Source: a virus. Taken from it: 12,758 nt of DNA. Every line of letters begins with the position of its first letter. The stretch's first letter is position 1. Below are positions 3,001-6,000 of the stretch, piece by piece. Location: UHGV virus genome UHGV-0134735; one strand, written 5' to 3'. The position numbers are program-made.

Positions 3001-6000
3001 GGCATCGAAATGGTGATCGTCATCCTTGATACCGAGAAATGCTTTCGCTTCCTGCATAGCCTGATGCAGGTTAATTCCTCGACATGCCATCCACAAATCA
3101 AGCATGTCACCGCCGTCCCCCTCAGCGAAATCAGCCCATTTTTTCTTGCCGCTAAGGTTGACCTTAAGGCTGTTTCCCTTGTCACCGTTGACGTTACCGG
3201 CAACCCACTCATGCCCCTCTTTCTTGCCGTTTGGCAACAGGTGCGGAGCCACCCTGTCAACCTGCGCCCAAAGCAGGTCGCTAAGTTCACTTGGCGTCAT
3301 GATTCCCTCAGATTGAGATTTTTAAACCAGAAATCGACAAACGAAATACTTAACCAGCCGTGGTTATAACCAGCGACCAGTAGCGATTTGATTTTTGATT
3401 TCATGGTTCACCTGTCGAAAAACACGTAGCCAGTTTTCGATACGGTGATTGCGGATGATGGTTTGGATTGTGGTTGAATAGTTTCTGGCTTCTCGTCGTT
3501 CCAGCGTTGACCGTTCAGGTAGCTCGATGGTAACAACCTGTCGAATCCGAACTGCTTACCATTCCTGCATGCGATGTCTTCTGCCAGCATCGTGGCAAAC
3601 TCGCTTGCCGTACCCCTGGTAGTTTTACGCCATTCCCTGAACTGTGTTCTGAATGCCGAAGCTGCGTTTTTCTTCCCGGCTTTCCGCATGCCTGCACACC
3701 AGAATATTTCCTCGAATGCCTTGTCGGTTTCTTCGTGACGGTCATGTGATTTTTCACACTCCGTCCGAACACTTTCGGACATAGTGTTTTTATTATTTCT
3801 TTTTTCTTTTGTAATAGTTTCTTTTGTGTGTCCCTGTTTTGGTGACAGCGCTGTCACCGTTTTGGTGACACTTTTTGTCACCAATGCAGTGACATTATCA
3901 CCAGAGTAGTGACACCCTTCTATTTGCCATTCCTCGATGTTCTTGTTAGGCCCGATTTGCTGGCCTTCGCGAAGGATAACCTTCATCGCGATAAGCTCAT
4001 TCTTGGCCTTGTTTACCTTCTGTCTTGGCAGCCTGGTAATTTGAGCTAACTGACTATCAGAGATGCGATCCATCTTTTTACCGTAGCCGTATGTTTTACG
4101 GCATATGGCGTGGGCAACCTTGCTCTGATTTTTCGTTAAATCTGCGCCGATAAGCTCTTCATACAGGGCATTTGCAAGACGGGTATAACCATCTTCAACT
4201 TCTGCCACACGACGCTCCACAGGCCGTTGTGAAGGCCTTAAATGTGTTACGGTTGCAAGATTACTCATGACCTTTCTCCTTCTGCATCAGCTTCACTTTT
4301 TCCAACTCAGCTCGGAATCGACCAGGCTGCTTGAAGCTGGACAGGAAGCGATCACGTAGTATGTGTTTGTGAATTTTGTCCTGGTAAGGACTGAGTTGTT
4401 TTGTCATAATTACTCCTGTTGATAGATCCAGTAATGAACTCAGAATTCCATCTGGATTTGATCAGAACGCCCGGTCTTGCACACCGGGCGTTTTTTATTG
4501 GTGAGTTCATCAAGCGCATACTTAAAAGCCCTACTAATCGGACTGATGTCTGATGCCATTCCGAAAGCACACAAGACCGAAGCAATAAACCTCCAGTCCG
4601 TTCTGCTTATCTTCGATTCATGACAGCCAATCATCTTTGCCAAACCGCGCTGGGTAAGCGTTGACAGGTTGATGAGTAAATCAGTTTCAGCGCGATCAAT
4701 TTCTCGCTGTGTTGGCTTGCTGTAACTTGCTTGTGTCATTTCTTAATATTTCCAATAGTGAATAGTTAGTTGAAAGGTATGCGTGGAAACGCATATGACC
4801 TTAGTTGGTCAGATATCTTGGGACTCGCTTTGTCAGCGACGTAGGACGAATGTCCATTGTGAAAAGAGCGGATCCGCTTATTAAGCGGCTTGGTGTTCCG
4901 GCGGGAACACGTCATCAAGACTGACTTTTGCGCCTAACTTGTTTAGGCACGCAACAAGAGCACGGCATGTTTTAAGGTCTGGGAAGCGACGACCAGATTC
5001 CCAATGTCCGATAGCCCCCTGTGTGCATCCAACCGCCTTAGCAAGGGTTGTTTGAGAGATATTCAGTGACTCTCGATATTTTCGTAGGTTGCTCATATGC
5101 CCTCCATAGTAACCATGAAACAATAATACGATATGTACTCTTGGAATGCAAACAAAAAATACACCTTGTGCATGGATGGTTTTAGTACAGAGCGTAATAA
5201 TAAGGATATGAAAATGAAATGGTATGAACTGGCTAGATCCAGAATGAAAGAGCTCGGCATAACTCAAGAGAAGTTAGCTGAAGAGCTTGGTATGACGCAG
5301 GGTGGAATTGGTCACTGGTTGCGCGGATCTCGTCATCCATCTCTTGACGAGATTGGTGTGGTGTTTAAATACCTTGGTATTGATAACGTCTCATTCAACC
5401 ACGACGGTACATTTTCACCTGTTGGCGAATACTCATCTGCCCCCGTAAAAAAACAATATGAGTACCCTGTTTTTTCTCATGTTCAGGCCGGGATGTTCTC
5501 GCCTGAGCTTAGAACCTTTACCAAAGGTGATGCGGAGAGATGGGTCAGCACAACCAAAAAAGCCAGTGATTGTGCGTTTTGGCTTGAAGTTGAAGGTAAT
5601 TCCATGACCGCACCAACAGGATCCAAGCCAAGTTTTCCTGACGGGATGTTAATTCTCGTTGACCCTGAGCAGGCTGTTGAGCCAGGTGATTTCTGCATAG
5701 CCAGACTTGGTGGTGAGGAGTTTACCTTCAAGAAACTGATCAGGGATAGCGGTCAGGTGTTCCTACAACCACTAAACCCGCAATATCCAATGATCCCATG
5801 CAATGATAGCTGTTCCGTAGTAGGGAAAGTTATCGCCAGCCAGTGGCCTGAAGAGACATTTAGTTAACAGCATCACCACTCTAAAACACACAACAATAAC
5901 CCGACCTTAGCGTCGGGTTTTCTTTTTCCAAAATATAAATCAATAAAATACAAAGTGTTATAAAAAACCAACCATATTTAGAACATTTTGTATTGACTCA

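What the first reader, a model, noticed from the sequence alone, without database searches (positions are those of the whole stretch)
3781..3910. Origin iterons built from a perfect 18-bp palindrome inside the initiator gene
About 3.5 repeats of GGTGACA-N4/5-TGTCACC (first copy a perfect palindrome ggtgacagcgctgtcacc) with roughly 22-23 bp periodicity, flanked by an AT-rich tract, lie in the middle of the O-like coding sequence. This mirrors ori-lambda architecture with a different iteron sequence and so predicts a distinct initiator specificity.
Basis: seen in the sequence. Interest (0 to 1): 0.45.

Follow-up and report, generated by a model that had tools for sequence, protein, structure and literature searches.

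The report
Lambda-type phage origin, variant iterons
This is most likely the replication origin of a lambda-like prophage, lying inside its initiator gene as in phage lambda but with differently spelled initiator-binding repeats: a real feature, but an ordinary member of a well-known design.

Summary
The repeats are real and non-random. They are best read as four 19-bp dyad-symmetric iterons, TGTCACC-N5-GGTGACA, at 3829-3847, 3852-3870, 3876-3894 and 3896-3914. A 41-bp, 17% G+C tract follows at 3788-3828, then a hairpin at 3756-3787. All lie in the linker of a lambda O-family initiator gene (3408-4268, minus strand).

The geometry matches ori-lambda exactly: start-to-start spacing of 20/24/23 bp, and the AT-rich box is homologous to lambda's.

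In 22 diverged relatives the half-sites are 93% conserved, against 52% for third codon positions upstream. The four copies are read in three reading frames, so selection acts on the DNA.

Across 92 unique initiator N-domains, iteron spelling tracks the predicted recognition helix one-to-one. It reassorts freely with the C-terminal module and its partner (primase-helicase here; lambda P or a DnaB-like helicase elsewhere).

The same architecture is annotated as the origin in ES18 and P22. This module sits in 175 of 5,426 complete E. coli genomes. It is a new spelling class of a known kind, of low interest.

The parts
3896..3914 (.). Iteron 1 in gene order. Minus strand reads TGTCACTACTCTGGTGATA. 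2 mismatches to TGTCACC-N5-GGTGACA.
   Evidence: Read as CHYSGD in codon frame 1.
3876..3894 (.). Iteron 2. Minus strand reads TGTCACTGCATTGGTGACA. 1 mismatch.
   Evidence: It starts 20 bp after iteron 1, as lambda ITN2 does after ITN1.
3852..3870 (.). Iteron 3. TGTCACCAAAACGGTGACA, a perfect match to the consensus.
   Evidence: It is the best conserved copy among relatives, with nearly every half-site position at 100%.
3829..3847 (.). Iteron 4. TGTCACCAAAACAGGGACA. Its right half departs from the consensus and runs into the box shared by all classes.
   Evidence: Homology to ES18 and lambda starts inside it.
3788..3828 (.). AT-rich tract of 41 bp at 17% G+C; the presumed DNA-unwinding element.
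   Evidence: Nearly identical to the lambda AT-rich ori segment. 89% column conservation in 22 relatives.
3756..3787 (.). Inverted repeat or hairpin directly after the AT-rich tract; a possible third origin element. It belongs to the ES18-type C-terminal module.
   Evidence: I5. As single-stranded DNA: -11.9 kcal/mol, z = -6.8. Two pairs show compensatory changes in 11 relatives. Hairpins recur at this place in unrelated C-modules.
3796..3841 (.). Box shared by origin classes, and the crossover zone between the N-module with its iterons and the C-module.
   Evidence: PhiR12-type matches cover 3796-4268 and ES18-type matches cover 3408-3841. The overlap is this box.
3408..4268 (-). Initiator gene of the lambda O family, 286 aa. 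N-terminal origin-binding domain aa 1-118, linker carrying the origin, C-terminal partner-binding module.
3987..4028 (-). Codons 81-94, the predicted recognition helix PRQKVNKAKNELIA of the winged-helix N-domain.
   Evidence: Model secondary structure H82-94 with block-mean pLDDT 84-90 over aa 81-100. The residues that best separate iteron classes lie here.
1420..3300 (-). Primase-helicase of 626 aa (Toprim_2 plus a DnaB_C/AAA_25-like region); the replication partner that travels with this O C-terminal module.
   Evidence: (ES18 gp61).

Best explanation
This is the replication origin of a lambdoid (Sf101/mEp043-like) prophage, built on the ori-lambda plan.

Inferred mechanism, by homology with lambda:
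1. Dimers of the phage's own O-family initiator bind, through a winged-helix N-terminal domain, to four 19-bp dyad-symmetric iterons (TGTCAC-N7-GTGACA cores) that lie in the gene's own linker region.
2. The resulting nucleoprotein complex strains and opens the adjacent 41-bp AT-rich tract.
3. The initiator's C-terminal module recruits the phage primase-helicase encoded just downstream, where lambda would recruit P and DnaB.

The iteron spelling and the recognition helix PRQKVNKAKNEL form a matched pair that differs from lambda's pair (TCCCTC with PVKRCNEAKLEL). The origin should therefore respond only to its own class of initiator.

Shown here: the anatomy, the homology to lambda, DNA-level conservation, and the pairing of helix with iteron. 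Inferred: binding, unwinding, partner recruitment and specificity.
For: Anatomy and statistics:
- Four clustered matches against 0.44 expected in the whole window.
- AT-rich tract.
- Location directly after Phage_rep_O aa 20-114.

Homology to lambda:
- Identical 20/24/23 spacing.
- Same inner CAAAAC and a near-identical AT-rich box.
- ori-lambda is defined as ITN1-4 plus a 38-39 bp high-AT region. O binds each ITN as a dimer through its N-terminal part and binds P through its C-terminal part (PMC3349717, PMC6022878).
- ES18 and P22 records annotate rep_origin at the same position.

Selection on the DNA:
- In 22 non-redundant relatives the half-sites are 0.933 conserved, and third codon positions inside them 0.909.
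- Third codon positions upstream are 0.525 and the region beyond the AT tract is 0.516.
- The four copies are read in three frames: CHYSGD, VTALVT/VTKTVT and LSPKQGH.

Specificity:
- All loci with 3-4 clustered iterons in IMG/VR carry an O N-domain next to them. Single matches do not.
- In a protein-selected sample iteron class follows N-domain identity.
- Nearest-neighbour class agreement is 85 of 92, against a permutation mean of 31.5.
- The helix-3 motif is one-to-one with iteron class, and is kept even at 51% overall identity.
- Helix 3 is the recognition helix of a winged-helix model.

Modularity:
- The same N-module and iterons occur with a primase-helicase, with lambda P, with DnaB-like helicases and with another partner. 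The C-module tracks the partner.
Against: - There is no experimental evidence for this iteron class. I found no paper describing it.
- N-domain and iterons are physically adjacent, so co-inheritance alone would produce much of the association.
- The structure model is only moderately confident (mean pLDDT 66.5) and its fold matches are weak (E of 8e-3 or worse).
- The conservation figures were computed on arrays that already passed a limit of 4 mismatches per iteron, which inflates them somewhat.
- The role of a T7-gp4-like primase-helicase at a lambda-type origin has not been characterised in anything I could read.
Confidence: 0.85

Rival explanations
1. The binding unit would be GGTGACA-N4/5-TGTCACC, including the perfect 18-bp palindrome, with about three units.
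For: The palindrome 3841-3858 is perfect. Because all half-sites are conserved, this register is as conserved in sequence as the other.
Against: - Its internal spacers are 4, 5 and 1 bp, which does not fit one dimer geometry. The other register has a constant 5 bp.
- Lambda's annotated ITN1-4 align with the TGTCACC-N5-GGTGACA register and have the same 20/24/23 spacing.
- The inter-iteron letters (GCGC here) vary among relatives: GGGT, GGCA, ACCC.
Confidence: 0.05
2. The repeats are a relic or secondary site. The initiator binds them, but replication with the primase-helicase partner starts elsewhere, or the sites serve autoregulation or titration of O rather than initiation.
For: - No experiment exists for this class.
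- Lambda ori fragments on plasmids can inhibit lambda replication, and O titration by iterons has been discussed there (PMC3349717).
- A weak iteron-like site lies in the primase-helicase gene at 3180-3198.
Against: - The AT-rich tract and the whole geometry are conserved along with the iterons in every partner context, including lambda P, where origin function is established for the lambda spelling.
- The 3180 site has 3 mismatches and is within chance expectation.
Confidence: 0.07
3. The repeats are a consequence of coding for a repetitive peptide linker (VTxxVT) with no role as DNA.
For: Iterons 2 and 3 both encode V-T-x-x-V-T.
Against: - The four copies are read in three different frames and give unrelated peptides.
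- Third codon positions inside half-sites are 0.909 conserved, against 0.525 upstream.
- Spelling co-varies with a DNA-binding helix 30-40 codons upstream.
Confidence: 0.02
4. The hairpin-plus-T-run shapes act as intrinsic terminators, or as RNA structures, for transcription running antisense to the O gene.
For: The consensus scan calls terminator-like sites on the plus strand at 3840-3859, 3852-3870 and 3763-3780.
Against: - These shapes follow automatically from dyad iterons with A-rich spacers.
- No promoter-like site was seen that would drive plus-strand transcription into them within 3300-5300.
- There is no Rfam match.
- This idea does not explain the pairing with the N-domain helix.
Confidence: 0.03

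Closest known systems
ori-lambda and the O protein of phage lambda
   Same: - The origin lies inside the initiator gene, directly after the Phage_rep_O domain.
- Four 18-19 bp hyphenated-dyad iterons with 20/24/23 bp spacing.
- CAAAAC-type inner spacer.
- A homologous AT-rich box of about 40 bp on the promoter-distal side, then an inverted repeat.
- A two-module initiator (PMC3349717, PMC6022878).
   Different: - Half-site TGTCAC(C) instead of (A)TCCCTC.
- N-domain only 53% identical.
- Predicted recognition helix PRQKVNKAKNEL instead of PVKRCNEAKLEL.
- A different C-terminal module, and a primase-helicase partner instead of P.
Replication module of Salmonella phages ES18, epsilon34 and g341c (gp59 O-like protein plus gp61 primase/helicase)
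   Same: - The C-terminal half of O is 93-95% identical in DNA, up to window position 3841.
- The same hairpin and the same primase-helicase.
- rep_origin is annotated at the equivalent place in ES18.
   Different: ES18 carries lambda-type iterons and a lambda-type N-domain. The window is the reciprocal mosaic, with a different N-module and iterons.
Sf101, mEp043, SEN22, vB_EcoP-720R6 and the PhiR12 phages
   Same: Identical N-domain (100% aa) and identical iterons. Sf101, mEp043, SEN22 and 720R6 match the whole gene at 98.6-99.9% in DNA.
   Different: The PhiR12 phages join this N-module and its iterons to a lambda-type C-terminus and lambda P. The Sf101 and PhiR12_1 records I opened annotate no origin, and the Sf101 paper does not mention iterons.
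Other lambdoid origin classes: P22 gene 18, HK97/mEp213, phi80-like mEp237, Pocitis76, and phiEt88/Omnitron
   Same: The same architecture and the same conserved ACACAAAAGA... box after the last iteron. [quoted passage not shown] The epsilon34 paper notes that different origin-binding specificities are known in different lambdoid phages (PMC2629481).
   Different: Each class has its own half-site, for example TTTACC, TTAGCC, TTCCCG, TGTCTCT and TGTTACC. For the four other classes scored (lambda TCCCTC, TTAGCC, TGTCTCT, TGTTACC), each also has its own helix-3 motif.
Iteron origins of plasmids (Rep/RepA-type initiators)
   Same: The working logic is similar: an initiator binds repeated sites next to an AT-rich unwinding element.
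   Different: By general knowledge, plasmid iterons are direct repeats bound by initiator monomers of other protein families. Here each repeat is itself a dyad and the initiator is Phage_rep_O. This is not a member of that group.

Membership tests
ori-lambda-type origin (origin internal to a lambdoid O gene) | Lies within the initiator gene, in the linker directly after the N-terminal origin-binding domain | tested here: met
   The iterons occupy codons about 119-147 of ORF 3408-4268. Phage_rep_O covers aa 20-114.
ori-lambda-type origin (origin internal to a lambdoid O gene) | Four or more 18-19 bp iterons, each an inverted repeat of hyphenated symmetry | tested here: met
   Four units of TGTCACC-N5-GGTGACA with 0-2 mismatches. 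None of 200 shuffles reached the observed count.
ori-lambda-type origin (origin internal to a lambdoid O gene) | Iteron geometry as in lambda | tested here: met
   Start-to-start spacing is 20/24/23 bp in gene order, identical to lambda ITN1-4 at 39034, 39054, 39078 and 39101.
ori-lambda-type origin (origin internal to a lambdoid O gene) | Adjacent AT-rich region of about 40 bp on the promoter-distal side | tested here: met
   3788-3828 is 17% G+C and is nearly identical in sequence to lambda's.
ori-lambda-type origin (origin internal to a lambdoid O gene) | Iteron sequence matched to the initiator's DNA-binding domain | tested here: met
   The helix-3 motif is one-to-one with iteron class in 92 unique N-domains. 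This is comparative evidence only.
ori-lambda-type origin (origin internal to a lambdoid O gene) | Initiator dimers bind the iterons and form an O-some | not testable with these tools
   Needs EMSA or footprinting.
ori-lambda-type origin (origin internal to a lambdoid O gene) | Replication initiates here, with unwinding of the AT-rich tract and helicase loading | not testable with these tools
   Needs origin mapping or a miniplasmid assay.
Phage_rep_O initiator family (PF04492) | Match to the family profile above the curated threshold | tested here: met
   128.8 bits against a cut-off of 28.7, E = 1.1e-37.
Phage_rep_O initiator family (PF04492) | Two-module build: an N-terminal origin-binding part and a C-terminal part specific to the replication partner | tested here: met
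   The C-module co-occurs with its partner type: ES18-type with the primase-helicase, lambda-type with P, and P22/HK97-type with DnaB-like helicases. Only the Pocitis76-type was seen with two partners. The C-module is independent of iteron class.
Phage_rep_O initiator family (PF04492) | Winged-helix DNA-binding fold | tested here: inconclusive
   The MSA-based model shows H46-61, H71-78, H82-94 and a beta wing at 98-107. All top PDB matches are winged-helix regulators, but at weak E-values of 8e-3 or worse. No solved relative was found by sequence.
Plasmid-type iteron origin (Rep/RepA initiators) | Direct, non-palindromic repeats bound by a Rep-family initiator | tested here: not met
   Each unit is a dyad, and Phage_rep_O was the only Pfam family matched by the initiator.

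The most novel reading that the evidence does not exclude
Lambdoid origins may be three-part rather than two-part.
- A class-specific iteron array read by a short recognition-helix code. Here PRQKVNKAKNEL pairs with TGTCAC. One or two helix changes go with one- or two-base half-site changes in sister classes.
- A universal AT-rich box that also serves as the recombination joint.
- A hairpin directly after that box. It differs in sequence in each C-terminal/partner module, yet is kept by compensatory changes. It could be a loading or priming signal specific to the partner, here the primase-helicase.

If true, this natural series would give a set of orthogonal initiator/origin pairs of identical geometry, plus a previously unassigned origin element.
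Probability: 0.25. Interest if true: 0.4.

Novelty: new member of a known kind. Interest (0 to 1): 0.2.

Why it matters
The value is mainly practical.
- It places the likely replication origin of a prophage replication module present in about 3% of complete E. coli genomes and in Sf101, mEp043, SEN22 and the PhiR12 phages. The Sf101 and PhiR12_1 records I opened annotate no origin.
- The comparison yields a clean natural series: five iteron spellings on one fixed geometry, each paired with its own recognition helix. That series could guide studies of initiator specificity. It could also inform work on cross-talk or incompatibility between co-resident prophages, and the design of orthogonal replicons.
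- It does not change how lambdoid origins are understood.

Tried and rejected
- Single-sequence AlphaFold model of the whole protein: unusable, mean pLDDT 42.9. It was replaced by an MSA-based model of the N-domain.
- Sequence search of the PDB: no relative found.
- Rfam scan of the window: nothing.
- Literature search for the iteron strings returned only primer-sequence noise. Searches on lambdoid iterons and on the named phages and a look inside the Sf101 paper found no description of this spelling. The Chi-hotspot lambdoid phage paper held none of the terms searched. The ES18 genome paper is not held.
- The exact-pattern scan of IMG/VR returned many single chance palindromes. Only loci with clustered copies were informative.
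- First attempts at the conservation script failed on locus naming and an anchor offset and were corrected.
- The hit-counting classifier mislabelled two TGTTACC arrays (L155, L158) as TGTCACC, because the two spellings differ by one base per half-site. The helix-3 motif sorts them correctly.
- Covariation in the lambda-type palindrome after the AT tract was examined by eye only and was not convincing.

Full report
**What the window is**

The window is the early region of a lambdoid prophage. Replication genes run on the minus strand.
- cI-like repressor at 5133-5867 (plus strand).
- cII at 4440-4739.
- An O-family initiator at 3408-4268. Pfam Phage_rep_O covers aa 20-114, E = 1.1e-37.
- A 626-aa primase-helicase at 1420-3300, with Toprim_2 and a DnaB_C/AAA_25-like region.

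The O gene is 98.6-99.9% identical in DNA to those of phages Sf101, mEp043, SEN22 and vB_EcoP-720R6.

**Checking the observation**

- The perfect palindrome GGTGACAGCGCTGTCACC is at 3841-3858.
- Half-sites are packed into 3841-3916.
- Repeat spacing is 23, 24 and 20 bp.
- An AT-rich tract adjoins them. By my count, 3788-3828 is 17% G+C.

The better parse is four 19-bp units, TGTCACC-N5-GGTGACA. They lie at 3829-3847, 3852-3870, 3876-3894 and 3896-3914, with 2, 0, 1 and 2 mismatches. The whole window is expected to hold 0.44 such matches by chance, and none of 200 shuffles reached the observed five.

In this register the spacer is always 5 bp. The 18-bp palindrome is therefore the junction of iterons 4 and 3, not a unit.

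**Comparison with lambda**

In gene orientation the four units start 20, 24 and 23 bp apart. Lambda's annotated ITN1-4 start at 39034, 39054, 39078 and 39101, which gives the same spacing.

The sequence after iteron 4 reads CACAAAAGAAACTATTACAAAAGAAAAAAGAAA. Lambda's AT-rich ori segment reads CACAAAAGACACTATTACAAAAGAAAAAAGAAA, which is almost the same.

Published work describes ori-lambda as follows (PMC3349717, PMC6022878).
- It consists of four 18-bp hyphenated-dyad iterons plus a 38-39 bp high-AT region.
- O binds each iteron as a dimer through its N-terminal part.
- O binds P through its C-terminal part.
- The O-some is proposed to destabilise the AT-rich region.

ES18 shares the window's O C-terminal half and its primase-helicase. 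Its record annotates rep_origin at the equivalent place, but with lambda-spelled iterons. P22's record annotates an origin at the equivalent place too.

**Selection acts on the DNA, not the peptide**

The four copies are read in three frames: CHYSGD, VTALVT/VTKTVT and LSPKQGH.

I collected 80 loci by protein similarity to the N-domain and extracted 22 non-redundant arrays of this class. Majority-base frequencies were as follows.

| Region | Majority-base frequency |
|---|---|
| Half-sites | 0.933 |
| Third codon positions within half-sites | 0.909 |
| AT-rich tract | 0.889 |
| Inner spacers | 0.786 |
| Inter-iteron spacers | 0.759 |
| Third codon positions in the 150 nt upstream | 0.525 |
| Beyond the AT tract | 0.516 |

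Caveat: the arrays had to pass a limit of 4 mismatches per iteron. However, nearly every locus with an N-domain at least 66% identical had such an array anyway.

**Specificity**

An exact-pattern scan of IMG/VR showed a clean split. Every locus with 3-4 clustered iterons has an O N-domain beside it, at 45-100% identity. Single matches have none.

In the protein-selected sample, iteron spelling changes with N-domain identity to the window.

| N-domain identity to the window | Iteron type |
|---|---|
| About 66% and above | TGTCACC type |
| About 59-69% | TGTTACC/GGTAACA type |
| About 47-61% | Lambda TCCCTC type |
| About 49-58% | TTAGCC, TGTCTCT and GTAGCTA types |

Nearest-neighbour class agreement was 85 of 92. 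The permutation mean was 31.5 and the maximum 46.

A model built from a 29-sequence alignment gives a winged-helix layout: H46-61, H71-78, H82-94 and a wing at 98-107. Block-mean pLDDT is 84-90 over aa 81-100. All the top PDB fold matches are winged-helix regulators, though at weak E-values.

The residues that best separate the classes cluster in helix 3. The helix-3 motif maps one-to-one onto iteron class.

| Helix-3 motif | Iteron half-site |
|---|---|
| PRQKVNKAKNEL | TGTCACC |
| SR[PS]KANIAKNEL | TGTTACC |
| SRQNVNKAKKEL | TGTCTCT |
| PVKRCNEAKLEL | TCCCTC (lambda) |
| HHTHVCKAKNEM | TTAGCC |

The TGTCACC motif is kept (as PRQKVNPAKHAL) even in L015, whose N-domain is only 51% identical overall. 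Physical linkage of the domain and its sites contributes to the association, and binding was not tested.

**Modularity**

PhiR12 phages carry the identical N-domain and iterons fused to a lambda-type C-terminus and followed by lambda P.

TGTCACC arrays occur with several partners. The C-module tracks the partner.

| Partner next to a TGTCACC array | Loci |
|---|---|
| Primase-helicase | 28 |
| DnaB-like helicase | 18 |
| Lambda P | 14 |
| Pocitis76-type primosomal protein | 6 |

The crossover zone is the box shared by all classes, 3796-3841. PhiR12-type and ES18-type homologies overlap there.

**A possible third element**

Directly after the AT tract lies an inverted repeat at 3756-3787.
- As single-stranded DNA it folds at -11.9 kcal/mol, z = -6.8.
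- Among 11 ES18-type modules two stem pairs show compensatory changes.
- Unrelated C-modules, including lambda's and P22's, also carry a hairpin at this position. Of 98 unique segments, 42 had z below -2, against mononucleotide shuffles only.

This is suggestive and not established.

**Rivals**

- A purely coding repeat is contradicted by the three reading frames and by the conservation of third codon positions.
- Terminator-like calls on the plus strand follow automatically from dyads with A-rich spacers.
- A relic or titration-only site cannot be excluded without experiments. It is unlikely, because the whole geometry is conserved in every partner context.

**Novelty**

The architecture is textbook, and different origin-binding specificities among lambdoid phages are recognised (PMC2629481, PMC8022706). 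I found no description of this spelling. The Sf101 and PhiR12_1 records annotate no origin.

The module is common: 175 of 5,426 complete E. coli genomes carry it. I rate it a new member of a known kind, of low interest.

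Noticed in passing
window 3756-3787: An inverted repeat or hairpin lies directly after the AT-rich tract (z = -6.8). Two stem pairs show compensatory changes among ES18-type relatives. Hairpins of unrelated sequence sit at the same place in lambda-, P22- and other-type C-modules.
   Followed up: partly
window 3796-3841: The O gene is a mosaic. Its N-module and iterons are shared with PhiR12 phages, and its C-module with ES18, epsilon34 and g341c. The two homologies overlap only in this 46-bp box (iteron 4 right half plus the start of the AT tract). The box is conserved across all origin classes and looks like the recombination joint.
   Followed up: partly
window 3829-3847 and relatives: The right half of iteron 4 always departs from the consensus. 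It reads AGGGACA or AGAGTCA instead of GGTGACA. Lambda ITN4 departs in the same way (CAGGGGGA instead of CGAGGGA).
   Followed up: no
window 4464-4494 (+): A strong terminator-like hairpin (12-bp stem, then a T-rich tail, TTTTTTATT) lies antisense to the 3' end of cII, with a promoter-like site at 4419-4446. Its position matches an oop-type antisense RNA. There was no Rfam hit.
   Followed up: no
window 3180-3198: A single weak iteron-like site (TGTCACCGTTGACGTTACC, 3 mismatches) lies inside the primase-helicase gene. It is within chance expectation.
   Followed up: no
L186-L190 and L192-L199: O/ori sequences identical or nearly identical to lambda sit on short or very low-coverage contigs of unrelated taxa: Bradyrhizobium, Ruminococcus, Paenibacillus, Shewanella, Pseudomonas, Neobacillus, Chromatium. 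Several contigs are about 48.4-48.5 kb. This looks like lambda DNA contamination of those assemblies.
   Followed up: no
L149, L150, L152, L162, L163: Some relatives carry 5-6 or more TGTCACC-type iterons, with matching insertions in the O linker. This resembles the six iterons described for Stx phages (PMC7466680).
   Followed up: no
L154, Klebsiella sp. plasmid: An N-domain 73% identical to the window's is followed by unrelated sequence instead of iterons. This may be a disrupted O gene on a plasmid.
   Followed up: no
window about 4261-4407 (-): A small upstream ORF, annotated DUF2740 in RefSeq, overlaps the start of O by 8 bases. The same arrangement is seen in Sf101, P22 (orf48) and PhiR12_1.
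   Followed up: no
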